22,590 nt of DNA from a virus (lineage: Duplodnaviria; Heunggongvirae; Uroviricota; Caudoviricetes), in IMG/VR virus record IMGVR_UViG_3300014970_000006, positions 1 to 22,590 of that record; one strand, given 5' to 3'. Position 1 is the first letter of the stretch. Each line of letters starts with the position of its first letter. Positions 1 to 22,590 of the stretch are shown in pieces. Under the pieces are notes generated by a model. It saw only the letters and a list, made by a program, of their open reading frames with translations. It was not told the origin of the DNA and made no database searches. A program made the translations under genes and the position numbers.

Positions 1-60
1 TGGTAGAGCAGCGCATTCGTAATGCGAAGGTCGTAGGTTCGACTCCTATTATCGGCACCA
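1..60 (+). tRNA. thrW: 3' portion of tRNA-Thr (anticodon CGU), truncated by the window edge; likely prophage attachment site
   Basis: Anticodon loop TTCGTAA (U33, anticodon CGT, A37); T-arm GGTTCGACTCC; acceptor 3' strand TATCGGC plus CCA ending at 60; integrase gene lies immediately adjacent. Confidence 0.85.
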
Positions 61-104: not shown

Positions 105-1238
105 TTACTGGGACAAATTTGGGACCGATGGGTTCAGGATCGAGTCTATTTGCCGTGCGTGTTCGGTAAGGTGATTAGGTGCAAGGTGAGCATATCGACG
201 AACCATTTCGATAGACTCCCAGCCTCCCATTTCCTGTAACACTGACAACGGGACTCCGGCTTGAACCAGCCAACTTGCCCAGGTGTGTCTCAAGTCGTGA
301 AATCTGAAATCATCAATACCAGCCCGTCTCAGCGCCGCTTTCCAGGCTGTGTTTGCGTCATACCGCATCTTCCTTACTGTTGGCGCTTTCGTTCCGTCTG
401 GTTTGGTACAGCTTTCCTTGTACACAAATACCCAACGGTGATGATTCCCGATTTGTTTTTTCAATACGCGACATGCAGTATCATTCAGCGCAACGCCAAT
501 TGCGCGGTTTGATTTACTCTCTTCCGGGTTTATCCATGCCACCCGGCGCTGCATATCTATTTGTTGCCATTCAAGGTTGATGATGTTCGAGCGTCTTAAA
601 CCTGTTGCCAGTGCAAATTCAACAACAGACTTTAATGGCTCCGGACATTCATCAATCAGCCTTTGTGCTTCATGGGGCTCCAGCCAGCGGATCCGTTTAT
701 TCTTTGGTTGAGGCACTTTAATAATTGGTGCCTTATCCAGCATTTTCCATTCACGCTCTGCGGCTCTTAGTAGGGCCTTTATAAATGAAAGATGCGTAGC
801 CTTCGTTGCAACGGACGCTGGTTTTGGCGTGTATTCTGGAACAGGTTTCCCTTTTTTTCTGCATGCTTCTGCCCTGAGTTTCCAGTTTTCCTCATGACGC
901 CGGTTCGTCATTTTCTGCATTGCTGAATAAATTTTTGATTCAGTAATGTCTCTTAGTTGCATTCCTGCGAAATGTTGAAGCCAGAATCCGATCCGGCTTT
1001 TGTCATCGTCCAGTGATTTTTTATGTGCTTTCTCTTCAAGCCACCTGACACACGCTTCCTCGAACGTTATATCAGGTATTTCACCAAGTTTGCTGACCCG
1101 CCATGCTTCAGCCTTTAGCTTGTCATGGAGTTCTGTCGCCTGCCTTTTGTCCTTTGTTCCAAGAGACTGTTTAAATCTTTTACCGTTCGGCAATGTGAAA
1201 CTGGCGTACCATATTTCACCTCTGCGGAAGAGTGACAT
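105..1238 (-). CDS. Tyrosine recombinase / phage integrase (P4-like family)
   Basis: 377-aa ORF; C-terminal catalytic-domain motifs ([36 protein letters not shown]); GAGGAAAG RBS upstream of ATG at 1238; next to tRNA 3' end. Confidence 0.92.
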
Positions 1239-1465
1239 TTTCTTTCCTCTGTTATGCCATCACCCGCGCTCACCTGGACAGTATGCAGCGGAGACTGAAG
1301 AGCCGCAATGCAGGCTTGTCGTGTTGTGAGGTAAGGAGATTTATTCTTAGTGGGATCTTTGCGTGTTGCCTGAAGACGCCCTGTGCGTATCCAGTTAATG
1401 GCAGTCGGTCTGGATATCTTGAGAAAATGACAGGCCTCATCGAGTGTGAGGCTGTATGGCTCCAT
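1115..1465 (-). CDS. Excisionase-like small HTH protein (AlpA/Xis family)
   Basis: Internal Met start [31 protein letters not shown] resembles AlpA/Xis HTH; sits directly upstream of int; 3' end overlaps int by ~124 nt in another frame, so true extent is uncertain. Confidence 0.4.
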
Positions 1466-1770
1466 TATTTCACCTCTTGCTGTGACATTGTTGAAAAATG
1501 GATACCAGCTCGTTGCTGCCAGACGATCCAACCGAGAGTCATATCCCATGCCATGTATTCGTTATCGCCGTTTTTTGCTCTCCGACGATCTACTAAGTCA
1601 CCGAAACGCTTTTCCATGAATAATTCATAAGCTTCGCGTTCATCTGGTTCTACTTCCAGCGATAGGAGTGCGATTTCATAAGCACGGCGCTCAATATCGT
1701 CTCGCACGTCAAGGCTGCTGATACGCTCTTTAATTTCTTTAATCAGTTCTTTGTCGGTAAAAGTGGTCAT
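1465..1770 (-). CDS. Hypothetical small acidic prophage protein
   Basis: ORF from internal Met (MTTFTDKELIKEIKERISSL...), same strand as xis/int and tightly packed against the xis-like start; no family recognised. Confidence 0.4.
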   Translation of the reverse strand: MTTFTDKELIKEIKERISSLDVRDDIERRAYEIALLSLEVEPDEREAYELFMEKRFGDLVDRRRAKNGDNEYMAWDMTLGWIVWQQRAGIHFSTMSQQEVK

Positions 1771-2533
1771 TATGCTCCAGCCTCCGGTGCTTTTGGCATT
1801 AACGCGTAAGGCGCGTCGCCAGGGTAACCGCAATGCGTCGAATGTTTATCAGCTTAACGTTGCGAAGCTTCAGGCAGCGGCATTTTCTCAACTGTCAGAT
1901 TCTGACCCGTCAAAATCTGACGCATCAAAATCTGACCCGTCAAAATTTGATGCGTCGAAATCTGGCAAAAAAGCGGGTTTTCACCCGTCAGAATCTGGCG
2001 GGGATCCGTCAGTAAAATCAAAACATGATCCGTCAGATAAAAAACCTTCTCGTCCGGACGCTTCGCAACCGGACACGCAGACGGATGAACAGGATTTTTT
2101 AACTCGCCATCCTGATGCGGTTGTATTCAGCCCTAAAAAGCGCCAGTGGGGAACGCAGGATGATTTGACCTGCGCACAGTGGCTCTGGAAAAAAATCATC
2201 GCCCTGTACGAGCAAGCCGCCGAATGTGACGGCGAGGTGGTTCGTCCCAAAGAACCGAACTGGACAGCCTGGGCAAACGAAATTCGCCTGATGTGTGTGC
2301 AGGATGGTCGTACTCACAAACAAATCTGCGAGATGTACAGCCGCGTCAGCCGCGATCCGTTCTGGTGCCGTAACGTGCTCAGCCCGTCGAAGTTGCGGGA
2401 AAAATGGGATGAGCTTTCCCTGCGCTTATCGCCGTCCGTCAGCACGCACACAGAAAAACGCGAAGACCCGTACTTCAAAGCCAGTTACGACAATGTGGAC
2501 TACAGCCAGATCCCGGCGGGATTCAGGGGGTGA
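1751..2533 (+). CDS. Phage replication protein with DnaT-like C-terminal domain; gene contains an iteron array
   Basis: C-terminus ends ...DYSQIPAGFRG, closely resembling the C-terminal end of primosomal protein DnaT (...SQIPPGFRG); N-terminal third is a repetitive translation of 15-bp iterons; true start uncertain. Confidence 0.6.
   Translation: MSVKVVIMLQPPVLLALTRKARRQGNRNASNVYQLNVAKLQAAAFSQLSDSDPSKSDASKSDPSKFDASKSGKKAGFHPSESGGDPSVKSKHDPSDKKPSRPDASQPDTQTDEQDFLTRHPDAVVFSPKKRQWGTQDDLTCAQWLWKKIIALYEQAAECDGEVVRPKEPNWTAWANEIRLMCVQDGRTHKQICEMYSRVSRDPFWCRNVLSPSKLREKWDELSLRLSPSVSTHTEKREDPYFKASYDNVDYSQIPAGFRG
1895..2045 (+). repeat. Iteron-like direct repeat array (~15-bp period, about 7-8 copies) inside the replication gene; candidate origin
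   Basis: Repeated CCGTCA(A/G)AATCTGAC-type units visible at ~1908, 1921, 1936, 1951, 1985, 2006, 2030. Confidence 0.6.
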
Positions 2534-5556: not shown

Positions 5557-6267
5557 GTGTATGGAGCGCTGAGAAGTATGAATCAACAAGACTTGAATTT
5601 TGTCAGAATAGAACTACGTCGTGCGCTGTTTGACTTCTCTGGGGGGACAAAAGGGCAGCTTGAGGCTTTCACTGAACACCCACCAGCAGACAAAAATGCC
5701 ACTCCACGCCGTGGAATTCATCTTGTCGAACTCGAAGGTGATAAGGGACCACGCTTTGTTAACTCGCTTTCCGCGCCATTGTACGTGCAAGAAACACGTA
5801 GCCGCCCCAGGCCAATGCCGCCGATAAAAGATGTAGAATTTGAGTCCGCGCCGTGGCGTAGGGCAGTGTCCGCGCTTAGTGGATACCAGCAGGCTTGGTT
5901 GCGGTACTGTTACGGTTTTGACCTTAACTATACGCACCAGGTGATGATGTGTGAATACGTCTGGAAGGCTTATCAGAAATGCTTGGGTAAAAACTCACTT
6001 CAGGAGCGCGTAGTAAAAAAACTAATAGGCCTAGTATGGCTTGCAGGACAGGAAATTGCTGCAACCCGAAACAATGAAACCTATAAAGACTACGCTGGTG
6101 CGGCGCTGGCCCGTATGGTTAGCGTTGACCGTTCGACATGGTTGCGCGTCTATTCAGGCCACTGGGCTGGGTTAAAGGCCGCTTTTACCCAGCTTGATGA
6201 GTCTGCGCTGGCCATGGCTCTTGAATACTATGAGGATGAAGAAGCTCTCAAAGTGGGAGAAATATGA
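5557..6267 (+). CDS. Putative late-gene antiterminator (Q-like)
   Basis: Called mainly by position: immediately upstream of a promoter plus short-transcript terminator unit and the lysis cassette; no catalytic motif identified. Confidence 0.45.
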   Translation: MYGALRSMNQQDLNFVRIELRRALFDFSGGTKGQLEAFTEHPPADKNATPRRGIHLVELEGDKGPRFVNSLSAPLYVQETRSRPRPMPPIKDVEFESAPWRRAVSALSGYQQAWLRYCYGFDLNYTHQVMMCEYVWKAYQKCLGKNSLQERVVKKLIGLVWLAGQEIAATRNNETYKDYAGAALARMVSVDRSTWLRVYSGHWAGLKAAFTQLDESALAMALEYYEDEEALKVGEI

Positions 6268-7339: not shown

Positions 7340-7726
7340 ATGTCCGATCCGATTTCCGGCACAGGGTTAGCTGCTGGAGTCCTGACAGGCGCTAGTGTTT
7401 ATGGACTGCTGACCGGAACTGATTACGGTGTTGTATTTGGCGCATTTGCAGGGGCTGTATTCTACATCGCAACAGCAGCAGATCTGAGTTTATCGCGTCG
7501 ACTGGCATATTTTATCGTGTCGTATATTGCCGGAATCCTTTGCTCTGGGTTGGTTGGCTCCAAGCTGGCAAACTTGACCGGATACAGTGATAAACCTCTG
7601 GATGCTATTGGTGCCGTAATCGTCTCTGCTTTAGCCGTTAAAATCCTGACGTTTCTGAATAACCAGGATATCGGTTCGCTGGTGGCGCTTATAACGCGCC
7701 GGGGAGGTTCAGGTGGAGCTAAATGA
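7340..7726 (+). CDS. Putative holin (multi-transmembrane small membrane protein)
   Basis: 128 aa, Gly/Ala-rich hydrophobic segments, charged C-terminus; first gene of the lysis cassette upstream of the endolysin. Confidence 0.6.
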   Translation: MSDPISGTGLAAGVLTGASVYGLLTGTDYGVVFGAFAGAVFYIATAADLSLSRRLAYFIVSYIAGILCSGLVGSKLANLTGYSDKPLDAIGAVIVSALAVKILTFLNNQDIGSLVALITRRGGSGGAK

Positions 7727-7994
7727 CCCGACAGCAACTATAAATGCGCTGTTATGTGCTTGTGTTGTTATTACTCTGATGTTTTATCGTCGTGGTGATT
7801 CGCGGCATCGTCCTTGGGTTTCACGTTTAGCCTGGCTGATTACTGTTACATACAGTGCTGTTCCGTTGGCCTATCTCTGTGGGATTTATCCCCATTCCTC
7901 ATGGCCCATTATCGTGGCGAATACTATTTTTCTTTCCGTGCTGGTGGCCGTCAGAGGCAACGTTGCACGTCTGGTTGATCATCTGAGGCACTAA
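7713..7994 (+). CDS. Small membrane protein of the lysis cassette (second holin or antiholin-like)
   Basis: 93 aa with two or three hydrophobic helices; overlaps neighbours at both ends. Confidence 0.5.
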   Translation: MELNDPTATINALLCACVVITLMFYRRGDSRHRPWVSRLAWLITVTYSAVPLAYLCGIYPHSSWPIIVANTIFLSVLVAVRGNVARLVDHLRH

Positions 7995-8608
7995 TGAACC
8001 AACAATTATTTCAAAAGGCGGCTGGTATTAGCGCCGGGCTGGCTGCGCGCTGGTTTCCGCACATTGATGCGGCGATGAAGGAATTCGGCATTACAGCACC
8101 AGCGGATCAGGCAATGTTTATCGCTCAGGTAGGCCATGAGTCGATGGGGTTTAGCGCCGTAGTTGAAAATTTTAACTACACACCATCTGCGCTGGTGGCG
8201 TCGTTCGGAAAGAGGATTACACAGCAGCAGGCTGATGCCCTTGGCAGAACATCCGGACATGCAGCTCGTCAGGATGCTATTGCCAATCTTGTGTATAGCA
8301 ACCGACTGGGTAACAAAGCACCAGGTGATGGCTGGAAATATCGTGGTAGAGGATTAATTCAAATCACTGGCCTCCATAATTATCGCATCTGTGGCGCGGC
8401 GCTGAAGTTAGATCTGGTGACTTCACCTGAACAACTGGAACAGGAGCTACAGGCCGCGCGCTCAGCTGCATGGTTCTACACCTCTAAAGGTTGCATGGTC
8501 TACGGTACCGATATTAATCGTGTTACGCGCATCATTAACGGCGGTCTGAACGGTATTGAGGATCGTAAGGTTCGATACAACAAGGCGCGGGCGGCGCTGC
8601 TGGTATGA
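7994..8608 (+). CDS. Endolysin, glycoside hydrolase family 19 (chitinase-like lysozyme)
   Basis: 204 aa; FIAQVGHESMGF ... WKYRGRGLIQITGLHNY ... INGGLNGIEDR are typical GH19 endolysin segments. Confidence 0.85.
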   Translation: MNQQLFQKAAGISAGLAARWFPHIDAAMKEFGITAPADQAMFIAQVGHESMGFSAVVENFNYTPSALVASFGKRITQQQADALGRTSGHAARQDAIANLVYSNRLGNKAPGDGWKYRGRGLIQITGLHNYRICGAALKLDLVTSPEQLEQELQAARSAAWFYTSKGCMVYGTDINRVTRIINGGLNGIEDRKVRYNKARAALLV

Positions 8609-8997
8609 AGATGAGTTATTGGGCGCTCATTTTAACGTTTATTGCTTGTATTGCTGGTGGTCTTGTTTGGTCAGCGAATCACTATCATGGAAAGTTTCTG
8701 GAGGAGCAGAAGCGTGCTGACGCTGCGGAACAGCGAGCTGATTCTACTGAGGCTATCACCGCGAATGTTCTGCGTACTATGGCAATAACGAACATCATTC
8801 AGGAGGCGAATCAATATGCAAAACAGCAGATCGCACTGGAGTCACAGAGAACCCAGGAAGATATCAAAGTGGCTGTTGCGGATGATGATTGTGCTTCACG
8901 TCCTGTGCCTGCTGCCGCTGCTGACCGGTTGCGGAAGTACGCGAACAGTTTACGTGAGCATTCCGAAGACTCCACTACCAGTCAGCTTGACTTCTGA
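8605..8997 (+). CDS. Rz-like i-spanin
   Basis: N-terminal transmembrane helix, charged coiled-coil periplasmic domain, directly after the endolysin. Confidence 0.7.
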   Translation: MKMSYWALILTFIACIAGGLVWSANHYHGKFLEEQKRADAAEQRADSTEAITANVLRTMAITNIIQEANQYAKQQIALESQRTQEDIKVAVADDDCASRPVPAAAADRLRKYANSLREHSEDSTTSQLDF

Positions 8998-9130
8998 TAC
9001 ACCTGTACCGTTTATACCCAACCCACTGACGTATGGTGCAAGTCTTGATTTGAATGTAAGTTTGTTATCCGCGTTGGCTCAATGTAATAGGGATAAGTCT
9101 GATATCAGAATCATTGATAATCAAAATTGA
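8882..9130 (+). CDS. Rz1-like o-spanin lipoprotein, overlapping the 3' end of Rz in the +1 frame
   Basis: Signal peptide with lipobox LLTGC, Pro-rich mature region; starts inside Rz and extends past its stop. Confidence 0.65.
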   Translation: MMIVLHVLCLLPLLTGCGSTRTVYVSIPKTPLPVSLTSDTPVPFIPNPLTYGASLDLNVSLLSALAQCNRDKSDIRIIDNQN

Positions 9131-9897: not shown

Positions 9898-10248
9898 ATG
9901 CCACCACGAACTCCAAAAGCCTGCCGTGTTCGCGGGTGCCGCCGTACCACCACTGACCCGTCAGGTTATTGCGAAAGCCACAAAAGCGAAGGCTGGAAGC
10001 AATACAAGCCAGGACAATCCCGTCATCAGCGCGGCTACGGTTCGAAGTGGGACGTTATCCGCGCGCGTGTGCTGAAACGTGACAAAGGTTTATGTCAGTT
10101 ATGTCTGCGCGCTGGTGTGGTGCGTGAGGCGAAAACTGTTGACCACATCATCCCTAAAGCGCATGGCGGCACTGATGCCGACTGTAATCTGCAGAGTCTG
10201 TGCTGGCCGTGTCATAAGGCGAAGACGGCCCGTGAACGGATTAAGTAA
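9898..10248 (+). CDS. HNH endonuclease (terminase-associated, HK97-like arrangement)
   Basis: CRVRGC...C..H, DHIIPKAHGG, CNLQSLCWPCH motifs; sits immediately upstream of the small terminase. Confidence 0.9.
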   Translation: MPPRTPKACRVRGCRRTTTDPSGYCESHKSEGWKQYKPGQSRHQRGYGSKWDVIRARVLKRDKGLCQLCLRAGVVREAKTVDHIIPKAHGGTDADCNLQSLCWPCHKAKTARERIK

Positions 10249-10373
10249 GAACCAGTTCCCACTGCCAGAGGGGAGGGGCGGGTCAAATCCCTGTGACCTG
10301 ACGTCTTCCGGACTGCCCGCCCCATCGTTTTTTTATACCCGCGAAAAATGAAATTTAACCAGGAGTGCCGCAT

Positions 10374-10868
10374 ATGGCTGGAACGGCGGGGCGTTCCGGG
10401 CGTCGCCCCAAGCCAACGGCGCGCAAGGCGCTGGCCGGAAACCCCGGCAAGCGAGCCCTGAATAAAGATGAACCTGTTTTTACGCCCATCAAAGGTGTTG
10501 AGCCACCGGAGTGGTTCGCAGAAGAAAATCTCCCTCTCGCCACGATCATGTGGCAACTGACAACCAAAGAACTCTGCGGTCAGGGCCTGTTGTGCGTGAC
10601 TGACCTCGCGGTGCTTGAGCGGTGGTGCGTGGCCTATGAGTTCTGGCGACGTGCCGTGAAAAATATTGCCATACAGGGCAACACCATCACCGGTGCAATG
10701 GGCGGCAGGGTCAAAAATCCGGAGCTGACCGCCAAAAAAGAACAGGAGTCCGAGATGAGCAGCACGGGGGCAATGCTCGGACTCGACCCCAGCAGCCGCC
10801 AGCGTCTGATTGGCCTGGCGGGGCAGAAGAAAGCCACTAACCCGTTTCTGAAAATCATCGAGTCATGA
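10374..10868 (+). CDS. Terminase small subunit (P27/HK97-like)
   Basis: Basic N-terminus ([15 protein letters not shown]), size and position before the large terminase; AGGAG RBS 8 nt upstream of ATG at 10374. Confidence 0.8.
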
Positions 10869-11671
10869 GCCGGAAATCTTACCCCAACGTAAATGCTGCC
10901 AATCAGTATGCCCGTGATGTTGTGCGCGGAAAGATTGTGGCCTGCCAGTTTGTGATTCAGGCCTGCCAGCGCCATCTTGATGACCTGATGGCGGAAAAAA
11001 GTAAGTCGTTTCGTTACCGCTTCGACAAGGACCTGGCTGAACGGGCTGCCAAATTTATTCAGCTGTTGCCGCACACCAAGGGGGAGTGGGCATTCAAGAG
11101 GATGCCCATCACGCTGGAGCCGTGGCAGCTCTTTGTGATCTGCTGTGCGTTTGGCTGGGTCAATAAAGGCTCCCGGCTGCGCCGCTTCCGGGAGGTGTAT
11201 ACCGAAATCCCCCGTAAGAACGGCAAATCGGCAATCTCTGCCGGTGTTGCCCTGTATTGTTTTGCCTGTGATAACGAGTTTGGCGCGGAAGTGTATTCCG
11301 GTGCCACGACAGAGAAACAGGCGTGGGAAGTCTTTCGCCCGGCGCGACTGATGTGTAAACGCACACCCATGCTGACGGAAGCGTTCGGGATTGAGGTTAA
11401 CGCCTCAAACATGAACCGTCCGGAGGATGGCGCGCGGTTTGAACCGCTGATCGGTAACCCCGGTGATGGTTCATCACCCCACTGTGCCGTGGTGGATGAA
11501 TATCACGAGCACGCCACCGATGCGCTTTATACCACGATGCTTACCGGGATGGGCGCGCGACGTCAGCCACTGATGTGGGCCATCACCACCGCCGGGTACA
11601 ACATTGAGGGGCCGTGCTACGACAAGCGGCGGGAAGTTATCGAGATGCTCAACGGTTCGGTATGTTTCTGA
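10865..11671 (+). pseudogene. Terminase large subunit, N-terminal ATPase domain only (3'-truncated by deletion)
   Basis: Walker A-like [10 protein letters not shown] and Walker B-like [10 protein letters not shown] present; ORF stops after 268 aa with no nuclease domain; a Mu N-like reading frame follows. Confidence 0.8.
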
Positions 11672-11675
11672 TGCG

Positions 11676-12461
11676 ATGAAAGTGGTGGATTCTGCCGTAT
11701 CGGATGCCGCCAGGCTGTTGCAGGGGGATATCTCGGTACTTCTGCCGCCGCCATCGTCAGGCAAAAATTTCGTTGAGCAGGTGCAGAAAATGTGGCGTAC
11801 CGGGAAACGCCTTTATGGTAACGCCAGCGACCTGGTCACCATGATCAAAACGCTTTCCGGTGTCAGCCTCGGCAGCGATCTGCAACCGCGCGGCGTCTGG
11901 AAAACGGACAGTAAAACCACCGCCACGGCGACGCAGCAGCGTAACGTGGTTGCCAGCACCCTTCGTACGACCGCAATCAGCGAAGCGGCGTATGCCGTCA
12001 CCCGATTGCCTGCGCCAACAACTTCCGCGGTGATGCAGAATTCCGCAGTGGGGCAGGCAACAACACCCGCGCAGAGCACTGGCTGGCCTTCCATCACGCA
12101 TCCGGCACTGAACAATGCACCGGCGGTGAAAAACACGGTTGACCTGCCGACGTGGGAAGAACTGACTGACATTCGCGACACACTGAATACGGCAATTGAT
12201 AAGGAGTTGTCCCGTACAACCAGCGATGCGCTGTTTCTGGCGCTGCGCCGGGTGAAAGCAGATCTGAATGCGGATATCAACACGCGCCTTGAACAGTCTG
12301 CACGGATCATTCAGCGCACACCGGATGAGGTTTTACCCGCGCTGGTGCTGGCGGCGACCTGGTTTGATAACGCGGCGCGTGACGCGGACATTATCCGGCG
12401 TAATGCCATTACGCATCCCGGCTTTGTGCCGGTGATCCCTCTGAAGGTGCCAGTGCAATGA
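11676..12461 (+). pseudogene. Mu gpN-like (DNA circulation protein) C-terminal fragment
   Basis: Directly precedes a Mu-like baseplate block in Mu gene order; too short for a full-length N; starts at the deletion junction. Confidence 0.55.
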
Positions 12462-13537
12462 ACGACAATGTCACGCTACGGGTAAATGGCCGGGAGTGGA
12501 ATGGCTGGACATCGGTGCGCATCGGTGCCGGTATTGAACGGCTGGCGCGGGATTTCAGTGTGGAGATCACCCGCCAGTGGCCGGGAGATGAGGGTATCAC
12601 CACGCTTCAGCCGCGCATTAAAAACGGTTCAAAAGTGGAGGTGCTGATTGGTGATGAGCTGGTGATCACCGGCTGGGGGGAGGCGACGCCCGTTCGTTAC
12701 GATGCCCGTTCGGTCAGCACCGGTATTGCCGGACGCAGTCTGACCGCTGACCTGATTGACTGTGCAGCCGAACCGACACAGTTTAATGGACGATCGCTGG
12801 TACAGATTGCGCAGGCGCTTGCTGCGCCTTTCGGCATTGAGGTGGTGAACAACGGTGCGCCGTCGGGTGTTATTCCTGATGTCCAGCCTGATCACGGTGA
12901 AACGGTGATTGAGGTAATCAACAAAATACTCGGTCAGCAGCAGGCACTGGCTTACGACGACCCGCACGGCAGGCTGGTGATTGGCGGTATTGGCTCAACG
13001 CGGGCACATACTGCGCTGGTACTCGGGGAAAACATCCTTTCCTGCGATACGGAGAAGAGTATCCGGGAGCGGTTTTCTGTTTACCAGGTGGCGGGGCAGC
13101 GTGCCGGAAACGACGATGATTTCGGTGAGGCCACCACCACCGCGCTGCGGGCCCGCACAGAGGACGCATTTATTGCCCGTTACCGTCCGATGTATATCAG
13201 GCAGACAGGGCAGGCTACGGGGGCAGGCTGTATTGCCCGTGCGGACTTTGAAGCCCGACAACGGGCGGCGCGGACGGATGAAACCACCTATGTGGTGCAG
13301 GGCTGGCGACAGGGTAACGGTACGCTGTGGCAGCCCAACCAGCGGGTGATTGTCTTTGATCCGGTCTGTGGTTTCGACAATACCGAACTGCTTGTTTCGG
13401 AAGTCACGTTTACTCAGGACCAGAACGGCACCCTGACGGAAATCCGTGTCGGCCCACCTGATGCTTATCTGCCTGAACCCGAAGCCCCCAGCGCGCGGAA
13501 AAAGAAAAAAGCCAGAGTACAGGAGGACCCGTTCTGA
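12458..13537 (+). CDS. Baseplate hub protein (Mu gp44 / P2 gpD family)
   Basis: 359 aa; position and order within the Mu-like baseplate module; ATGA overlaps. Confidence 0.7.
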   Translation: MNDNVTLRVNGREWNGWTSVRIGAGIERLARDFSVEITRQWPGDEGITTLQPRIKNGSKVEVLIGDELVITGWGEATPVRYDARSVSTGIAGRSLTADLIDCAAEPTQFNGRSLVQIAQALAAPFGIEVVNNGAPSGVIPDVQPDHGETVIEVINKILGQQQALAYDDPHGRLVIGGIGSTRAHTALVLGENILSCDTEKSIRERFSVYQVAGQRAGNDDDFGEATTTALRARTEDAFIARYRPMYIRQTGQATGAGCIARADFEARQRAARTDETTYVVQGWRQGNGTLWQPNQRVIVFDPVCGFDNTELLVSEVTFTQDQNGTLTEIRVGPPDAYLPEPEAPSARKKKKARVQEDPF

Positions 13538-14085
13538 TGAGGACGATTGAAGCCATGCAGCGACAACTCCTCGGCCTGATTGGGCGGGCCGTGGTGAAAA
13601 GCATCAGTGCCGCCACGAAATGTCAGACCGTGGATGTGTCCCTGATTGCCGGTGAACCCAAAGCCGGGGTTGAACATCTTGAACCCTACGGTTTTACCTC
13701 AAGGGCAAACAGCGGTGCGGAAGCGGTGGTGTTGTTTCCGGATGGCGACCGTTCTCATGCGGTGGTTGTTACGGTGTCGGACCGGCGCTACCGCCTGAAA
13801 GGGCTGCAGACGGGTGAGGTGGCTGTCTATGACGATCAGGGGCAGTCCGTGACGCTGACCCGGGAGGGGATCGTGGTGGACGGTGCAGGTAAAACGATCA
13901 CGTTTCGCAATTCACCTAAAGCGCGTTTTGAAATGGACCTGGAAGTGACCGGACAGGTGAAAGACCTGTGCGACTCCGGCGGCACCACCATGTCAGCGAT
14001 GCGGCTTGCCTATAACGGCCATCGTCACAGAGAGAACGGTCAGGGCAGTAACACCGACAAACCGGATAAAGCGATGGAGGCATGA
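13537..14085 (+). CDS. Baseplate spike / assembly protein V-like (Mu gp45)
   Basis: 182 aa; gene order and size. Confidence 0.7.
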   Translation: MRTIEAMQRQLLGLIGRAVVKSISAATKCQTVDVSLIAGEPKAGVEHLEPYGFTSRANSGAEAVVLFPDGDRSHAVVVTVSDRRYRLKGLQTGEVAVYDDQGQSVTLTREGIVVDGAGKTITFRNSPKARFEMDLEVTGQVKDLCDSGGTTMSAMRLAYNGHRHRENGQGSNTDKPDKAMEA

Positions 14086-14510
14086 TGGAACTGTGGCTGA
14101 CGGTGAACGGTAAACGCACCTGCGCCAGCGCACCGCTGGATCCGCTGACCCGCGCCGTGGTGATTTCCCTGTTCACCTGGCGGCGGGCGGAGCCTGATGA
14201 TAATGCCGACGTCCCGATGGGATGGTGGGGGGATACCTGGCCTGCGGTACAGAATGACCGTTACGGCTCCCGACTGTGGCTGCTTCAGCGCAGCAAACTG
14301 ACCAATCAGCTGGTGCAGACGGTAAGGGGGTATATCCGCGAATGCCTGCAATGGATGACTGATGACGGCGTGGTGTCCCGTATTGATCTGGATATCCGCC
14401 GCACCGGGATTAATGAACTGGGTAACAGTATCACTCTCTGGCGTCGTGACGGACCGGTAATGATTTCTTTTGATGATCTGTGGAGTGCGATAACGCATGG
14501 CGGACAGTGA
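14082..14510 (+). CDS. Mu gp46-like baseplate protein (P2 gpW-like)
   Basis: 142 aa; gene order and size. Confidence 0.65.
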   Translation: MMELWLTVNGKRTCASAPLDPLTRAVVISLFTWRRAEPDDNADVPMGWWGDTWPAVQNDRYGSRLWLLQRSKLTNQLVQTVRGYIRECLQWMTDDGVVSRIDLDIRRTGINELGNSITLWRRDGPVMISFDDLWSAITHGGQ

Positions 14511-15555
14511 ATTTCAGCGCCCGACGCTGGCAGAAAATATCAGTATGCTCCGTAACGATTTATTCGCCAGGCTGGACGTCAGCGACACGCTCCGGCGCAT
14601 GGATGAAGACGTGCGGGCAAAGGTGTATGCGGCGGCGCTGCATACGGTTTACGGTTACATCGATTATCTGGCAATGAACATGCTGCCTGACCTGTGCGAT
14701 GAGTCCTGGCTGGCGCGACATGCTGCGATGAAACGGTGTCCGCGCAAGGGGGCCACGGCTGCCAGCGGGTATATGCGCTGGGAAGGTGTCAGCGATGGCC
14801 TGAAGGTGACTGCCGGGAGTGTTATTCAGCGCGATGACCTGGTTCAGTACACGGCAACTGCCGATGCAACCAGCTCCGGTGGTGTCCTGCGCGTGCCGAT
14901 CGCCTGCTCAAGTGCAGGTGCGGTCGGTAACGCTGACGACGGTACGGCATTAATCCTGGTCACGCCGGTGAATGGTCTGCCGTCTTCCGGTGTGGCTGAC
15001 ACCCTGACAGGCGGATTTGATACTGAAGAGCTGGAAACGTGGCGCGCCCGCGTCATTGAGCGGTATTACTGGACGCCTCAGGGCGGGGCTGACGGGGACT
15101 ATGTCGTCTGGGCTAAAGAAGTGCCCGGCATTACCCGCGCATGGACATACCGTCACTGGATGGGAACGGGAACTGTCGGTGTGATGATTGCCAGCAGTGA
15201 CCTGATTAATCCCATTCCGGAAGAATCAACGGAAACGGCGGCAAGACAACATATTGAGCCACTGGCCCCGGTGGCAGGCTCTGATTTGTATGTGTTCAGG
15301 CCGGTGGCACATACGGTGGATTTTCATATCCGTGTGACGCCGGACACACCGGAAATACGGGCTGCCATCACCGCGGAGTTGCGTTCGTTCCTGCTGCGTG
15401 ATGGTTATCCGCAGGGAGAACTGAAGGTATCGCGTATCAGTGAGGCGATTTCCGGTGCGAACGGGGAATACAGCCATCAGTTGCTTGCACCGGCAGACAA
15501 TATCTCCATTGCAAAAAATGAACTGGCGGTTCTGGGGACGATTTCATGGACGTGA
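14497..15555 (+). CDS. Baseplate J-like wedge protein (Mu gp47)
   Basis: 352 aa; gene order and size. Confidence 0.8.
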
Positions 15556-16130
15556 CAAACGATGATTACATCCGTCTGTTGTCGGCACTGCTGCCGCCCG
15601 GTCCGGCGTGGTCAGCCAGCGATCCGGCGATTGCAGGTGCGGCACCGTCATTAACCCGTGTTCATCAGCGTGCGGATGCCCTGATGCGGGAGCTGGATCC
15701 GCGCACCACCACTGAACTGATAAACCGCTGGGAGCGTCTGTGCGGTCTGCCGGATGAATGTATTCCCGCAGGGACACAGACCCTTCGCCAGCGTCAGCAA
15801 CGGCTGGATGCGAAGGTTAATCTGGCGGGCGGCATCAATGAGGATTTTTATCTTGCACAGCTTGCTGCCCTGGGCAGACCAGACGCCACTATCACGCGAT
15901 ACGATAAAAGCACGTTCACCTGCTCATCGGCCTGTACTGACGCAGTGAATGCGCCGGAATGGCGGTATTACTGGCAGGTCAACATGCCAGCCGCCACCAA
16001 CACCACCTGGATGACATGTGGCGATCCCTGTGATTCCGCACTGCGTATCTGGGGCGACACCGTTGTCGAGTGCGTGCTTAACAAACTCTGCCCGTCGCAT
16101 ACCTACGTAATTTTTAAATATCCGGAGTAA
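15546..16130 (+). CDS. Mu gp48 / P2 gpI-like tail protein
   Basis: 194 aa; gene order and size. Confidence 0.7.
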
Positions 16131-16133
16131 TCC

Positions 16134-16883
16134 ATGCATCGTATAGACACGAAAACCGCGCAGAAGGATAAGTTCGGCGCGGGTAAGAACGGTTTTACCC
16201 GTGGTAACCCCCAGACCGGCACACCTGCCACCGATCTGGATGATGACTACTTTGACATGTTGCAGGAGGAGCTTTGCAGCGTTGTGGAGGCATCCGGTGC
16301 CAGCCTGGAGAAGGGGCGGCACGACCAGCTGCTTACCGCGCTTCGTGCGCTGCTGTTAAGCCGCAAGAATCCGTTTGGTGATATCAAATCGGATGGCACG
16401 GTGAAAACGGCTCTCGAAAACCTTGGTTTGGGAGAAGGCTCTGCATTACCTGTTGGTGTCCCTGTTCCGTGGCCTTCAGCCACTCCGCCAACAGGCTGGC
16501 TGAAATGCAATGGTGCGGCTTTTTCTGCTGAAGAATACCCGGAACTGGCAAAAGTTTACCCGACAAATAAATTGCCTGATTTACGTGGTGAGTTTATTCG
16601 CGGCTGGGATGACGGAAGAGGAATTGATACTAACCGTAGCTTGCTTTCATCACAGGGCGATGCCATTCGAAATATAATTGGTGCATTAGTGGATGTCAGG
16701 TTTAATACCTATCCTTCTGATTCTGGTGCTTTTACAACCAGCGTCATCGGAGATGCTTCATCTGATTCAATTAAAGGTGGTTATGCAAAGCGAGTAACAT
16801 TTGATGCTTCCAGAGTTGTTCCAACTGCAAACGAAAACCGTCCGCGTAATATTGCATTTAACTATATCGTGAGGGCAGCCTGA
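16134..16883 (+). CDS. Tail fibre protein: constant N-terminus fused to the currently expressed variable C-terminus
   Basis: Tail-collar-like segment [23 protein letters not shown]...[19 protein letters not shown]; the crossover site lies inside the gene at 16416-16437. Confidence 0.8.
16416..16437. repeat. Left hix/gix-like crossover site of the invertible segment
   Basis: GAAAACC-TT-GGTTTGGGAGAAG; inverted copy at 18220-18241. Confidence 0.75.
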
Positions 16884-17485
16884 TGCATAAAGCAATATTA
16901 AATAGTGAGCTTATTGCAACAAAGGCAGGGGATGTTACCGTTTATAACTACGATGGTGAAACACGGGAATATATTTCCACGTCAACTGAATATCTTGCTG
17001 TTGGTGTCGGTATTCCGGCATGTTCCTGTCTTGATGCACCTGGCATACATAAGGTTGGTTATGCAATCTGTCGTTCTGTGAATTTAAATTCATGGGAATA
17101 TGTGCCAGATCATCGCGGTGAAATCGTCTATAGCACCGAAACAGGAGAATCGAAAGAAATCACAGCTCCGGGTGATTATCCTGAAAATACAACCACTATC
17201 GCCCCGTTAACGCCATACGATGAATGGAATGGTGAGAAATGGGTGACAGATACCGAGGCACAGCACGGCGCAGCAGTAGATGCAGCAGAAGCACAGCGCC
17301 CGTTGCTGATTGATACTGCAATGGCCTCCATCAGTCTGATTCAACTGAAATTACAGGCCGGACGGAAGCTGACGCAGGCAGAAACAATCCGCCTTAACGC
17401 TGTGCTGGATTACATTGACGCGGTGACGGCAACAGATACCAGCACAGCGCCGGACGTCATCTGGCCTGAACTGCCGGAGGCGTAG
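16883..17485 (+). CDS. Tail fibre assembly protein (Tfa), active orientation
   Basis: 200 aa; C-terminal ...LDYIDAVTATDTSTAPDVIWPELP typical of Tfa chaperones. Confidence 0.8.
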   Translation: MHKAILNSELIATKAGDVTVYNYDGETREYISTSTEYLAVGVGIPACSCLDAPGIHKVGYAICRSVNLNSWEYVPDHRGEIVYSTETGESKEITAPGDYPENTTTIAPLTPYDEWNGEKWVTDTEAQHGAAVDAAEAQRPLLIDTAMASISLIQLKLQAGRKLTQAETIRLNAVLDYIDAVTATDTSTAPDVIWPELPEA

Positions 17486-17900
17486 GCCATTCAATATCTG
17501 GCGCACCGGAAGTATCGACCAGTTCCAGTGCGTCCAGATAATCCAGCCACAAATTATATTGCGCCAGTTCCTCACCTTTCAGACGACCAATTGATGCTTT
17601 ACCTGGCCATTGTTTACTGTTGATGTATTCGTTGGCCTGGTTAATCAATTGCTGCTTTTTAGTTTCGGCTGATGCAATTTGTTCTTCACGTGTTGGTGGA
17701 GGAATATCTGCCCATGCAGGCAGCCCATCCTCTCCGACACATCTGTATTTTCCTTCTGGTGGTGTATCATAGAAATATTCCCTGAAAATTACTTCGTCTA
17801 TATCAACACCTTTTTCTTCAGGCCATTCACCTTTTTCAACATAAAGAGACTGAAGTTCGTAAGGATATGCCAGGTTGTTTACGTACAGATATTTCATCAT
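17457..17900 (-). CDS. Alternative tail fibre assembly protein (Tfa'), inverted orientation
   Basis: 147 aa; C-terminal ...LDYLDALELVDTSGAPDIEWPTPP parallels the Tfa C-terminus. Confidence 0.75.
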   Translation of the reverse strand: MMKYLYVNNLAYPYELQSLYVEKGEWPEEKGVDIDEVIFREYFYDTPPEGKYRCVGEDGLPAWADIPPPTREEQIASAETKKQQLINQANEYINSKQWPGKASIGRLKGEELAQYNLWLDYLDALELVDTSGAPDIEWPTPPAVQAR

Positions 17901-18220
17901 TACCAGCCCTTAGCGAAAAACGCACCACCTTCAAGACCATAATTGCAGTGAGCTATGAAGCCGGTAGTGCTCCAATTGGTCGCCCCCCACATATTCCCGC
18001 CCCCGAAACCACCATCGCACACAATTACAATGCCCGGTGTCTGTGTAAATGGAATCGGGAATGAAACATTGGCGGATACAGGCCCGTGTTCACCAGGAAA
18101 ACTAATTCGTCCCCACTGTTCAATTGAACCATCTGGCATTTTTCGCCAGCCTGAACCTGATGCATATGATGACATATCAGGTATCTGATTTTCCCCTGTT
18201 CCCACATTTCGTTTTGCCGC
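17900..18220 (-). CDS. Alternative tail fibre variable C-terminal segment, promoterless until inversion
   Basis: Reading frame runs through the right crossover site; Gly-rich fibre-tip-like sequence; no independent start expected. Confidence 0.6.
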
Positions 18221-18241
18221 TTCTCCCAAACCAACGTTTAT
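18220..18241. repeat. Right hix/gix-like crossover site
   Basis: Reverse complement reads AAACGTTGGTTTGGGAGAAG, matching the left site over about 20 nt. Confidence 0.75.
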
Positions 18242-18300
18242 GAAAATGCAGAAATAACGAGCAAATGGCATCATTCCTGCTTTTGTCAGGGAGATCTACC

Positions 18301-18912: not shown

Positions 18913-19782
<870 letters not shown>

Positions 19783-20277: not shown

Positions 20278-20378
20278 TTGACAAAACCTAAGGTAAGCGT
20301 ATACTCACAACCGCCAAGTTTTTCGTATTTGCTTACGATAGGAGAAGCCAGCGACAGCGGTTCGCTGGCTTTTTCGTT
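20278..20378 (+). ncRNA. Candidate small RNA unit: near-consensus promoter plus terminator, convergent with the ImmA/small-ORF transcript
   Basis: TTGACA, 16-17-nt spacer, TATACT at 20278-20306; hairpin AGCCAGCG-ACAGCGGTT-CGCTGGCT plus TTTTT at 20346-20375; no ORF in between. Confidence 0.3.
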
Positions 20379-20910
20379 ATCTTTTTGCATTTTTTCTCAT
20401 CCAGGTTTCAGCCGCTTGTTGACTGACACCAAATGTTTTGCTTATATCTTCAACAGTCATTGTGGGCAAAACTAGTCTTGAGTCAATTAAGAAGTGGCTT
20501 GCAAAAACATCTGCTTGCCATTCGCTGTCTTCATAGATTTTATGCCCTCCACTAGTCTTATTACGTGCATAGATACTTTGATTGCGATGCATGACTAAAT
20601 GACCAAGTTCATGCGCAACAGTGAATCTCGCATGGTTCTCACCATTGCACACTGCATCGTAAACAGATCGCTGTAAAACAATTTTGTTCTTATCTGGATA
20701 AGTCACTGCATAGCGTTTGGGCAGTTCATGATCTTCAACAATTTCTAGCTCAATGCTTTCTGAGGCCATAAGACCTTCTAGTAATACATCCAGTCTCAGA
20801 TATGTGTGATTTGATATCTGAAGAACGTCTCTCAGACGATGAGCGTATGATTTAATCATGCTGGTGCTGAGAGGTGAAACGCGATGGCCAAGTTCTCGTT
20901 TCGCAATCAT
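20377..20910 (-). CDS. ImmA/IrrE-family zinc metallopeptidase
   Basis: HEXXH motif in FTVAHELGHLVMH; 177 aa; directly downstream of and nearly overlapping an XRE HTH gene. Confidence 0.85.
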   Translation of the reverse strand: MIAKRELGHRVSPLSTSMIKSYAHRLRDVLQISNHTYLRLDVLLEGLMASESIELEIVEDHELPKRYAVTYPDKNKIVLQRSVYDAVCNGENHARFTVAHELGHLVMHRNQSIYARNKTSGGHKIYEDSEWQADVFASHFLIDSRLVLPTMTVEDISKTFGVSQQAAETWMRKNAKR

Positions 20911-20913
20911 TAT

Positions 20914-21264
20914 TCAGTCCTTTAACATTTTATTAAGCTTATCGAGTTGCTCTGGACTCAGGTCCTTAAATTTACGAGCAAAAACAAGCATTAGTTCTTT
21001 GTTCTGCTCATTTGCATCCGACATATCAACCTTAATGGACGGTTGAGAAATCTCTGCCTGTTTCTTGAGATTGATGATGTCTTGTCCGCTAAGCTCAAAA
21101 GTTGTTGCAATCGTATTTACTAATGAGTCCGGTATAGCTCTTTTGCCTAATTCAATGGCGGATAAGTAAGCCGAACTAACGCCTAACAGATCAGCCATAT
21201 TTTTGAGCACCATACCCCGGTCTATTCTCATTTTTCTGAGAGTCTTACCAAAGCTAGTTACCAT
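20914..21264 (-). CDS. XRE-family helix-turn-helix transcriptional regulator
   Basis: LRKMRIDRGMVLKNMADLLGVSSAYLSAIELGKRAIP is a Cro/C1-type HTH; GGAGG RBS upstream of ATG at 21264. Confidence 0.85.
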   Translation of the reverse strand: MVTSFGKTLRKMRIDRGMVLKNMADLLGVSSAYLSAIELGKRAIPDSLVNTIATTFELSGQDIINLKKQAEISQPSIKVDMSDANEQNKELMLVFARKFKDLSPEQLDKLNKMLKD

Positions 21265-22529: not shown

Positions 22530-22590
22530 TGGTGGAGCTGGCGGGAGTTGAACCCGCGTCCGAAATTCCTACATCCTCGGTACTACATGC
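22530..22590 (-). ncRNA. ssrA: tmRNA 3' end (tRNA-like domain), truncated by the window edge
   Basis: Reverse complement reads ...GTAGGAATTTCGGACGCGGGTTCAACTCCCGCCAGCTCCACCA, the tmRNA 3' terminus. Confidence 0.85.

What the first reader, a model, noticed from the sequence alone, without database searches (positions are those of the whole stretch)
10865..12461. Deletion junction fuses a truncated large terminase to a Mu-like gpN fragment; no head genes, so the prophage is defective
The large terminase reading frame contains the ATPase motifs but stops after 268 aa, and the next frame is a C-terminal fragment of a Mu N-like protein followed by a complete Mu-like baseplate and fibre module. Portal, protease, capsid, tail sheath, tube and tape-measure genes are all missing. 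The element therefore cannot form particles, yet retains intact-looking lysis, baseplate, fibre and invertase genes (e14-like architecture), suggesting retention for cargo or host benefit.
Basis: partly seen in the sequence, partly recalled or inferred. Interest (0 to 1): 0.45.

Follow-up and report, generated by a model that had tools for sequence, protein, structure and literature searches.

The report
Deletion-crippled SfV/e14-type prophage remnant
This is an ordinary decaying E. coli prophage of the SfV/e14 family: an 11-kb deletion removed its head and tail-shaft genes and a second deletion removed its repressor switch, so it is a well-known kind of viral fossil, not a new system.

Summary
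ORF 10865-11671 encodes residues 1-266 of an HK97-type large terminase, which is the ATPase domain only. It then adds Cys-Phe and stops. Four bases after that stop, at the ATG at 11676, begin the last 261 codons of a Mu gp43/N-like tail-tube initiator, followed by a complete Mu-like baseplate, fibre and Pin module.

Alignment to intact relatives places the junction at 11659-11662, a 4-bp GGTA microhomology. The deletion is 11,091 bp and removed ymfR, portal, protease, capsid, connectors, sheath, tube, chaperone, tape measure and the gpN N-terminal domain. No nuclease domain or head gene is present in any frame.

The junction is real. The identical truncated protein and gene neighbourhood occur in contigs from five other sequencing runs, by two assembly pipelines. 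It is rare and young: it is absent from 5,426 complete E. coli genomes, and the copies are about 99.97% identical.

A second deletion of 4.36 kb (junction 1799-1801) removed the repressor/cro region.

K-12 e14 belongs to the same family but has different deletions.

Adaptive retention is not shown. The element does carry a near-identical copy of the CMoRE/PD-T4-3 restriction enzyme, and its Pin segment has inverted since the deletion. Interest is low.

The parts
1..57 (+). 3' part of tRNA-Thr (thrW), cut off by the contig end; attL side of the prophage
   Evidence: Rfam tRNA, 40.2 bits, model positions 16-71. Window 1-110 is 99% identical to thrW next to proA in SC476.
105..1238 (-). Tyrosine integrase, intact
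   Evidence: Pfam Phage_integrase, E=3e-48. Annotated as an integrase in SC476.
1115..1549 (-). HTH_17 protein, possibly an excisionase (role inferred)
   Evidence: Pfam HTH_17, E=3e-8. SC476 annotates it only as a helix-turn-helix domain-containing protein.
1799..1801 (.). Junction of deletion 1 (TTA microhomology). 4,364 bp are missing relative to SC476: yfdR, ECs1072-family gene, ymfK repressor, ymfT cro-like gene, ymfL, DUF4222 and the N-terminal 69 aa of the O-like HTH protein.
   Evidence: Alignments; SC476 annotation. The same junction is in the independent contig L004. It is absent from complete genomes.
1772..2533 (+). N-terminally truncated O-like (HTH) replication protein
   Evidence: 253 aa here against 313 aa in SC476. 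Homology starts at window 1799.
5578..6267 (+). Late antiterminator Q
   Evidence: Pfam Phage_antiter_Q, E=3e-37.
7340..9130 (+). Lysis cassette: two holins, GH19 endolysin, Rz/Rz1-like spanins
   Evidence: Pfam Phage_holin_8, Phage_holin_3_7, Glyco_hydro_19 and LysC. DUF2570 is the precomputed hit on the 130-aa gene.
9898..10248 (+). HNH endonuclease next to the terminase genes
   Evidence: Pfam HNH, E=5e-15.
10374..10868 (+). Small terminase subunit (P27 family), intact
   Evidence: Pfam Terminase_4, E=4e-20. 100% identical to SC476 TerS over 164 aa.
10865..11671 (+). Truncated large terminase: residues 1-266 (ATPase domain) plus Cys-Phe, then stop. The nuclease domain is deleted.
   Evidence: 100% DNA identity to the intact ET5 terminase up to base 11662.
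11659..11662 (.). Junction of deletion 2 (GGTA microhomology). 11,091 bp are missing relative to SC476.
   Evidence: SC476 GGTA copies lie at L003 17535-17538 and 28626-28629.
11676..12461 (+). C-terminal 261 codons of the Mu gp43/N-like tail-tube initiator ('DNA circularization protein'). The tube-like N-terminal domain is deleted.
   Evidence: tblastn matches gpN 177-442 at 95.9% identity. The full protein has DNA_circ_N at residues 7-93 and matches PDB 9KI1. Domain roles are from PMC11915804.
12458..16130 (+). Complete Mu-like baseplate genes: homologues of gp44/P hub, gp45 spike, gp46, gp47/J and gp48
   Evidence: Pfam hits. About 98% DNA identity to SfV, SfI, SfII and SfIV.
16134..17485 (+). 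Tail fibre (constant N-terminus plus variable C-terminus) and its assembly chaperone, in the expressed orientation
   Evidence: Pfam Collar and Caudo_TAP.
17457..18274 (-). Alternative fibre C-terminal cassette and its chaperone, in the silent orientation
   Evidence: Pfam Caudo_TAP and Gp53-like_C.
16418..16437 (.). Left inverted repeat (crossover site) of the Pin-invertible segment
   Evidence: 20-nt inverted repeat, 95% complementary to 18220-18239. L004 continues from here into the opposite orientation. L005 and L008 align only up to this position, 13-15 nt short of their contig ends.
18220..18239 (.). Right inverted repeat of the invertible segment
18301..18855 (+). Pin-type serine invertase
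   Evidence: Pfam Resolvase plus HTH_7. Annotated pinE in SC476.
18913..19686 (-). Cargo: GIY-YIG type IV restriction enzyme CMoRE / PD-T4-3
   Evidence: PADLOC PD-T4-3, E=3e-140. About 98% identical to PDB 9U75. Function is from PMC12923530.
20377..22359 (.). Right-arm cargo: ImmA/IrrE metallopeptidase and XRE-type HTH protein (both -), BRO-N protein (+)
   Evidence: Pfam hits; PADLOC CapP/CapH-like hits.
22530..22590 (-). 3' end of the tmRNA gene ssrA, cut off by the contig end
   Evidence: Rfam tmRNA, 62.6 bits. The BRO-N-ssrA adjacency is present in 32 complete genomes.

Best explanation
The window is a whole 22.6-kb contig. It carries a temperate phage of the SfV/SfI/e14 lineage (lambdoid early genes, HK97-type head and packaging genes, Mu-type contractile tail) integrated at thrW. 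The prophage has been disabled by two RecA-independent, microhomology-mediated deletions.

Deletion 2 joined terminase codon 266 to gpN codon 177 at a 4-bp GGTA. It removed 11.09 kb: the terminase nuclease domain, ymfR, portal, protease, capsid, connectors, tail terminator, sheath, tube, chaperone, tape measure and the tube-like domain of the tube initiator.

Deletion 1 used a 3-bp TTA. It removed 4.36 kb containing the CI-like repressor, cro, presumably the early promoters that lie between them, and the N-terminus of the replication initiator.

The element therefore cannot replicate from its own origin, package DNA or build heads or tails.

Inferred: with the early promoter region gone, Q and the late operon are probably silent. 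That operon holds the lysis genes, TerS, the terminase fragment, the gpN fragment, the baseplate and the fibre. Silence would explain why an intact lysis cassette without a repressor is tolerated. Genes with their own promoters can still act, for example pin and the CMoRE/PD-T4-3 restriction gene.

The surviving genes look intact because the deletions are recent. No retention by selection has been demonstrated.
For: Deletion 2:
- The junction was mapped against two intact relatives, with both flanks at 97-100% identity.
- Only TerS, TerL 1-266, gpN 177-442 and gpP are detectable by six-frame search.
- PDB matches are to HK97 TerL and Mu gp43.

It is real, not an artefact:
- The exact 268-aa product, with the 261-aa gene beginning 4 nt after its stop, is on contigs from ERR526021 (both the ENA MEGAHIT assembly ERZ918777 and the Logan assembly), SRR11280855, SRR11280951, ERR1512428 and ERR13319223.
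- These contigs are 99.94-99.99% identical to the window.

Deletion 1. It is also present in L004.

Family:
- 98% DNA identity to the SfV, SfI, SfII and SfIV tail modules.
- SfI/SfV integrate at thrW and share morphogenesis genes with e14 (PMC3636060).
- K-12 e14 aligns to the window's terminase, baseplate J, fibre and pin regions but has different junctions.

Rarity and recency.

Pin activity: opposite orientation in L004; L005 and L008 stop matching the window at the inverted repeat.

Decay by deletion is common in this family: CT02 and loci L020-L022 carry other, independent junctions.
Against: - Nothing here measures transcription, so silence of the late operon is inference only.
- All supporting copies are short-read assemblies. 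No complete genome carries either junction.
- The contig runs from thrW to the ssrA 3' end on the opposite strand, and no thrW attR repeat was found. The right boundary and the chromosomal context are unresolved.
- A co-resident intact SfV-like phage could complement the missing functions in trans.
Confidence: 0.9

Rival explanations
1. Assembly artefact: the junction is a chimeric join or a collapsed assembly, and the real locus is intact.
For: - The window is a short-read contig.
- Its two ends lie in genes (thrW and ssrA) that are about 2.5 Mb apart in K-12 by my recollection, which was not checked here. At least one mis-join or rearrangement somewhere is therefore conceivable.
Against: - The junction shares only 4 bp of homology, far below any assembler k-mer.
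- The identical junction product and neighbourhood were recovered from five other sequencing runs with two different pipelines (MEGAHIT k127 and Logan).
Confidence: 0.02
2. Frameshift or sequencing error in an otherwise complete terminase.
For: None found.
Against: - tblastn of the 577-aa terminase finds only residues 1-266 in the whole window, in any frame.
- DNA to the right of 11662 is 96-99.5% identical to the gpN gene of relatives.
Confidence: 0.005
3. Domesticated remnant: the deletion products or the retained modules are kept by selection. Candidate selected functions:
- the ATPase-only terminase plus TerS/HNH interfering with packaging by related phages;
- the baseplate and fibre genes serving as a recombination reservoir;
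- the Pin and CMoRE cargo benefiting the host.
For: - All retained genes are full length.
- The CMoRE/PD-T4-3 copy is about 98% identical to a characterised anti-T-even restriction enzyme. It occupies the slot that holds mcrA in e14.
- Pin inversion has occurred since the deletion.
- Both truncations fall at domain boundaries.
- Cryptic prophages are reported to benefit E. coli (abstract of PMC3105296, listed).
Against: - The lineage is rare and nearly clonal, so there has been no time for purifying selection to be visible.
- The terminase and gpN fragments match no PADLOC defence model.
- The early promoter region that would drive the late operon is deleted.
- Benefit from CMoRE would explain keeping that one gene, not the structural genes.
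Confidence: 0.06
4. Natural satellite-like architecture rather than decay: an element that lacks head genes by design and hijacks a helper SfV-like phage.
For: It keeps the HNH-TerS packaging genes, an integrase and the tail-tip and host-range genes.
Against: - Both junctions cut through genes at non-homologous points and leave truncated ORFs.
- The replication initiator is truncated and the regulatory switch is gone.
- The flanks are 97-100% identical to full-size phages, so the loss is recent rather than an evolved design.
- No conserved family shares these junctions.
Confidence: 0.015

Closest known systems
Cryptic prophage e14 of E. coli K-12 (ymfN/aaaE, ymfR, beeE, jayE, ymfQ, stfP, tfaP, tfaE, stfE, pinE, mcrA)
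   Same: - Same phage lineage: 90-97% DNA identity in part of the terminase, in baseplate J/gp48 and in the fibre cassettes, and 92% in pin.
- Same style of decay: one deletion in the early region and one in the morphogenesis region.
- A Pin-invertible fibre segment is retained.
- A type IV restriction gene sits just downstream of pin.
   Different: - e14 is inserted in icd, not thrW.
- e14 keeps the repressor and cro genes and terminase residues 200-577. It lacks the lysis genes, TerS, gpN and gp44-46.
- Its morphogenesis deletion runs from portal to baseplate J, not from terminase to gpN.
- Its cargo is McrA instead of CMoRE.
Shigella/E. coli temperate myophages SfV, SfI, SfII and SfIV (functional, 37-41 kb)
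   Same: - Tail and baseplate module about 98% identical.
- thrW integration next to proA, and morphogenesis genes shared with e14 (PMC3636060).
   Different: - These phages are complete and inducible.
- The window lacks 11.1 kb of head and tail genes and the immunity region.
- The window carries no gtr serotype-conversion genes.
Near-intact E. coli prophage of isolate SC476 (NZ_LR778151.1) at thrW
   Same: Colinear with the window at 97-99.6% identity over 96% of its length, including the integrase, late genes, baseplate, Pin, CMoRE and the BRO-N arm.
   Different: - It has the 4.36-kb and 11.09-kb segments that the window lacks.
- Its right arm continues into a retron Ec48 region, not into ssrA.
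- Its capsid gene is annotated as frameshifted.
Prophage remnant of E. coli CT02 (NZ_CP081698.1)
   Same: It is the only complete genome in which a terminase fragment abuts a gpN fragment, and RefSeq annotates both as partial pseudogenes.
   Different: - It is an independent event: terminase nt 1491 is joined to gpN nt 508 at a 2-bp AA microhomology.
- It keeps an XRE-family repressor region.
- Its terminase part is only about 95-98% identical to the window's (94.8% over 10134-11661; 97.6% over 10302-11661).

Membership tests
SfV/e14-lineage prophage (lambdoid early genes, HK97-type head/packaging, Mu-type tail) | P27-type TerS plus HK97-type TerL, followed in relatives by HK97-type head genes and a Mu-type tail | tested here: met
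   - Pfam Terminase_4 and TerL_ATPase.
- The relative's TerL matches HK97 TerL (6Z6D).
- Synteny with SC476 and ET5.
- 96-98% DNA identity to phage records.
SfV/e14-lineage prophage (lambdoid early genes, HK97-type head/packaging, Mu-type tail) | Mu-like baseplate gene order gp43-gp48, followed by a fibre, Tfa and a Pin/Gin-type invertible segment | tested here: met
   Pfam hits and the 20-nt inverted repeats.
SfV/e14-lineage prophage (lambdoid early genes, HK97-type head/packaging, Mu-type tail) | Integration at a tRNA gene with flanking att repeats | tested here: inconclusive
   - A thrW fragment plus integrase lie at the left end.
- No thrW repeat was found at the right end. The contig ends in ssrA instead.
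Defective (cryptic) prophage | Absence or truncation of genes essential for particle formation | tested here: met
   - Six-frame search finds no portal, protease, capsid, sheath, tube or tape-measure gene.
- TerL lacks its nuclease domain.
Defective (cryptic) prophage | Failure to produce phage on induction | not testable with these tools
   Requires a mitomycin C or UV induction experiment.
Functional large terminase (TerL) | Both the ATPase domain (PF03354) and the nuclease domain (PF20441) | tested here: not met
   Only PF03354 (residues 86-256) is present. PF20441 (268-558 in the relative) is deleted.
Mu gp43/N tail-tube initiator ('DNA circularization protein') | N-terminal tube-like beta-barrel domain (PF07157 region) | tested here: not met
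   - The window fragment has no Pfam hit.
- The full-length relative has PF07157 at residues 7-93, and the window retains only residues 177-442.
Mu gp43/N tail-tube initiator ('DNA circularization protein') | C-terminal helix-rich, wedge-binding domain homologous to Mu gp43 | tested here: met
   - The relative aligns to 9KI1 chain residues 26-486, including the C-terminal block that the window retains.
- Domain description is from PMC11915804.
Microhomology-mediated (illegitimate) deletion | Short direct repeat at both breakpoints of the parent, with one copy left at the junction | tested here: met
   - GGTA is present at both sites in SC476 and ET5 and once in the window.
- TTA behaves the same way for deletion 1.
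Microhomology-mediated (illegitimate) deletion | No IS element, att site or invertase crossover site at the junction | tested here: met
   - The junction is base-for-base terminase DNA followed by gpN DNA, with nothing inserted.
- No Chi site lies within 300 bp of either breakpoint.
e14 itself | Insertion in icd, and the e14 junctions (oweE/aaaE, beeE/jayE) | tested here: not met
   The window is at thrW and has different junctions.

The most novel reading that the evidence does not exclude
Either of two readings is not excluded.

(a) The retained packaging block acts as a dominant-negative packaging inhibitor against superinfecting SfV-like phages. That block is HNH, TerS and an ATPase-only terminase cut exactly at the domain boundary. 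On this reading the remnant is a selected defence element, not debris.

(b) The 5' half of gpN is a genuine deletion hotspot in this phage family. Five independent alleles end there. Two pairs of right endpoints lie only 2 bp and 19 bp apart despite different left endpoints. One of those pairs flanks a 15-bp palindrome.
Probability: 0.04. Interest if true: 0.5.

Novelty: new member of a known kind. Interest (0 to 1): 0.12.

Why it matters
It matters little beyond annotation.

The two ORFs should be annotated as pseudogene fragments. RefSeq already does this for the analogous CT02 locus. The element should be scored as a defective prophage, not as a viral genome.

It is a clean, datable example of prophage decay by microhomology-mediated deletion in the SfV/e14 lineage. 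It adds one allele to a series of independent decay states: e14, CT02 and loci L020-L022.

The only items of practical interest are the cargo gene CMoRE/PD-T4-3, which restricts hmC-containing DNA such as that of T4 (PMC12923530), and the still-switching Pin segment.

Tried and rejected
1. Nuclease domain or head genes in another frame. Six-frame tblastn found none.

2. Junction in other collections.
- 0 of 5,426 complete E. coli genomes carry it. Only CT02 has the two gene fragments adjacent, at a different junction.
- There were no exact matches in GTDB representative genomes or JGI metagenome contigs.

3. A gpN fragment (P0019) that starts at 'GYVSD', almost exactly at the junction, and begins contigs in 808 index blocks. 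I first suspected a widespread hidden deletion allele.
- I rejected this. A T/G polymorphism lies immediately 5' of GGGTAT in relatives. It would create a de Bruijn-graph bubble, so contigs would start there. This is an inference.
- The start is also one base off what the window's junction would give.

4. Chi involvement. One perfect Chi lies 16 bp from the L022 left breakpoint, but none lies within 300 bp of any other breakpoint. Dropped.

5. Hairpin hotspot. The 15-bp palindrome CCAGCATAATGCTGG lies between the CT02 and window right endpoints.
- It folds at -5.9 kcal/mol (z=-3.0) in the ET5 version and at -3.0 kcal/mol (z=-0.3) in the SC476 version.
- With so few alleles, found through a biased route, this stays a curiosity.

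6. PADLOC scan of the TerL and gpN fragments gave no defence-family match.

7. The first attempt at two literature look-ups failed on term length and was repeated.
Full report
**What is in the sequence**

The 268-aa product matches only the terminase ATPase domain (PF03354, residues 86-256, E=6e-27). The 285-aa product matches no Pfam family.

Downstream lies a complete Mu-type baseplate set:
- GpP/gp44-like hub, 12458-13537
- gp45, 13537-14085
- gp46, 14082-14510
- Baseplate_J, 14497-15555
- gp48, 15546-16130

A collar-domain fibre and a fibre chaperone follow. After them come an inverted second chaperone and an alternative fibre C-terminus, then a resolvase-type invertase.

Upstream lie Q, two holins, a GH19 endolysin, the spanins, an HNH endonuclease and a P27-type small terminase.

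**Mapping the junction**

A megablast of 10300-12700 against 5,426 complete E. coli genomes hit 1,462 genomes. Almost all matched either the left 1,363 bases or the right part, as separate places.

Two relatives have the genes the window lacks:
- ET5 (L002) has a full 577-aa terminase followed by ymfR, portal, HK97-type protease and capsid, connectors, sheath, tube, chaperone, tape measure, a 442-aa 'DNA circularization protein' and the same baseplate.
- SC476 (L003) has the same set and is colinear with 96% of the window at about 98% identity.

Pairwise alignment gives these coordinates:
- The window follows the terminase gene up to base 11662 (100% identical to ET5).
- It follows the gpN gene from base 11659.
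- The four shared bases are GGTA, present once at each site in the intact relatives.
- In SC476 coordinates the two GGTA copies are at 17535-17538 and 28626-28629, so 11,091 bp are missing.

A six-frame search of the window with all 18 SC476 packaging and morphogenesis proteins from TerS through gpP returned four hits only:
- TerS 1-164 (100%)
- TerL 1-266 (99.6%)
- gpN 177-442 (95.9%)
- gpP 1-359

That test is negative.

The full-length terminase has its ATPase domain at 86-256 and its nuclease domain at 268-558. The cut falls at the domain boundary.

The two gene fragments are in different frames, so no chimeric protein is made. The terminase frame adds Cys-Phe and stops at 11669-11671. Gene callers start the gpN remnant at the ATG at 11676, giving 261 aa.

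**Identity of the two truncated genes**

The relative's terminase matches the solved HK97 large terminase (6Z6D, E=5e-25).

The relative's gpN matches the solved phage Mu 'DNA circularization protein N' (9KI1, E=6e-15) over nearly its whole length.

According to the Mu cryo-EM study (PMC11915804), gp43/N is the tail-tube initiator. It has an N-terminal tube-like beta-barrel domain, a flexible loop and a C-terminal helix-rich, LysM-containing domain that contacts the baseplate wedges.

The window keeps only the C-terminal part. PF07157 lies at residues 7-93 of the full protein.

**Is the junction real?**

Yes. The exact 268-aa product exists only if this junction exists. It is encoded on contigs from the ENA assembly ERZ918777 of run ERR526021 (human gut) and from Logan assemblies of ERR526021, SRR11280855, SRR11280951, ERR1512428 and ERR13319223.

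In every one, the 261-aa gene and the same neighbours follow. The contigs are 99.94-99.99% identical to the window.

A 4-bp overlap cannot cause a k-mer mis-join.

The cluster look-up shows that the window is itself a whole 22,590-bp contig held by JGI/IMG.

**How common and how old**

The junction is absent from:
- all 5,426 complete E. coli genomes
- one-genome-per-species GTDB contigs
- JGI metagenome contigs

The independent copies differ from the window at 1-4 positions each. Several of these lie near contig ends, and one is private to the window.

The lineage is therefore rare and essentially clonal.

Relative to SC476, the window jumps from L003 3301 to 7663 at window 1799-1801, with TTA microhomology.

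The missing 4,364 bp contain:
- yfdR
- the LexA/S24-type repressor ymfK
- the cro-like ymfT
- ymfL
- a DUF4222 gene
- the first 69 codons of the O-like helix-turn-helix protein

The ENA contig L004 has the same junction. No complete genome does. Three complete genomes carry a different deletion in the same region.

The element has therefore lost its lysogeny switch, and its replication initiator is truncated.

I infer, without expression data, that Q and the late operon are no longer transcribed. That would explain why an intact lysis cassette without a repressor is tolerated.

**Family and comparison with e14**

The baseplate module is about 98% identical to the functional Shigella/E. coli myophages SfV, SfI, SfII and SfIV.

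SfI and SfV integrate at thrW next to proA. Their packaging and morphogenesis genes are organised as in e14 (PMC3636060).

The window starts inside thrW (Rfam tRNA; 99% identical to the SC476 thrW region), with the integrase adjacent.

K-12 e14 aligns to the window in five regions:
- terminase bases 11462-11661 (e14 aaaE starts there and keeps the C-terminal 378 codons)
- baseplate J from 14768 onward
- ymfQ
- the fibre cassettes
- pin

e14 thus has its own pair of deletions: O-like gene to terminase, and portal to baseplate J. It sits in icd, keeps the repressor and lacks the lysis genes.

'e14-like' is right as to family and mode of decay. It is not right gene for gene.

**Other decay alleles**

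CT02 is the only complete genome in which a terminase fragment abuts a gpN fragment. RefSeq annotates both as partial pseudogenes.

Its junction is different. Terminase nt 1491 is joined to gpN nt 508 at a 2-bp microhomology.

Looking up a 306-aa gpN remnant from the same protein cluster gave three more independent alleles:

| Locus | Left breakpoint | gpN breakpoint | Microhomology |
|---|---|---|---|
| L020 | O-like gene | nt 253 | not determined |
| L021 | sheath nt 723 | nt 385 | GGTG |
| L022 | sheath nt 988 | nt 387 | TGC |

Decay of this prophage family by short-homology deletions is therefore commonplace. The window is one more instance.

**Retention for benefit?**

Three observations speak for some activity:

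1. The gene after pin (18913-19686, minus strand) is a full-length match to the PADLOC model PD-T4-3 (E=3e-140). It is about 98% identical to the crystallised E. coli O157:H7 enzyme (9U75). That enzyme has been characterised as CMoRE, a type IV restriction endonuclease that degrades 5hmC- and glucosyl-hmC-modified DNA, including T4 genomic DNA (PMC12923530). It occupies the slot that holds mcrA in e14.

2. The fibre segment is bounded by 20-nt inverted repeats at 16418-16437 and 18220-18239. It is in the opposite orientation in L004. Two further contigs stop matching the window at base 16437, 13-15 nt short of their own ends. Inversion has therefore occurred since the deletion, so the invertase has been active in this lineage.

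3. All retained genes have the lengths of their intact counterparts.

None of this shows selection for the structural genes. With a clonal, rare lineage, recency is sufficient explanation.

**Unresolved context**

The last 61 bases (22530-22590, minus strand) are the 3' end of ssrA.

In 32 complete genomes the same BRO-N gene abuts the real ssrA, as the arm of ssrA-integrated prophages of another tail type.

In SC476, only 28 bases of ssrA follow BRO-N before a retron Ec48 region.

No thrW repeat occurs at the window's right end.

Two explanations remain open. The carrier chromosome may have an inversion between prophages at thrW and ssrA. Alternatively, the contig left a shared 3.6-kb cargo module by the wrong branch. 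This does not affect the finding.

**Verdict**

The feature is an ordinary, recent, microhomology-mediated deletion in a well-known prophage family.

Confidence in this explanation is 0.9. Novelty: a new member of a known kind. Interest: 0.12.

Noticed in passing
window 18913-19686 (-): The cargo gene directly after pin is a full-length, roughly 98% identical copy of CMoRE/PD-T4-3. That enzyme is a characterised GIY-YIG type IV restriction endonuclease against hmC/ghmC phage DNA. It sits in the slot occupied by mcrA in K-12 e14.
   Followed up: yes
window 1799-1801: A second deletion of 4,364 bp relative to SC476, at a TTA microhomology. It removes the repressor (ymfK), cro (ymfT), ymfL, yfdR and the N-terminus of the O-like replication protein. 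The same junction is in the independent contig L004. It is absent from complete genomes.
   Followed up: yes
window 16418-16437 and 18220-18239; L004 14744-14875: The Pin-invertible fibre segment is in the opposite orientation in another sample of the same deletion lineage. Two further contigs stop matching the window at the inverted repeat. Inversion has therefore occurred since the deletion, inside this defective prophage.
   Followed up: partly
window 22530-22590 (-), with window 1-57 (+): The contig begins in thrW and ends in the 3' end of ssrA on the opposite strand. No thrW attR repeat is present. This suggests either a chromosomal inversion between prophages at thrW and ssrA, or a contig that left a shared 3.6-kb cargo module by the wrong branch.
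   Followed up: partly
L001 about 14050-14070; L021 and L022 about 5980; L020 about 5846; SC476 gpN nt 253-527: Five independent deletion alleles of this prophage family end in the 5' half of gpN. Two pairs of right endpoints nearly coincide (nt 385/387 and nt 508/527) despite different left endpoints. The second pair flanks the palindrome CCAGCATAATGCTGG. The sample was ascertained through gpN fragments, so this may be bias. There is no Chi association.
   Followed up: partly
window 20377-21291 (-) and 21598-22359 (+): An ImmA/IrrE metallopeptidase plus XRE-HTH pair (weak CapP/CapH-like PADLOC hits) lies next to a BRO-N protein. This is a regulator-like module in the right arm, shared with ssrA-integrated prophages. 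Its target is unknown.
   Followed up: no
L003 40021-41201 (SC476, beyond the window's homology): In the intact relative, the prophage right arm is followed by retron Ec48 effector and reverse transcriptase genes. In the window this position is replaced by ssrA sequence.
   Followed up: no
window 12678: All six other contigs of the lineage have T where the window has G (gpP Gly74Val). This is either a private variant or an error in the window contig.
   Followed up: no
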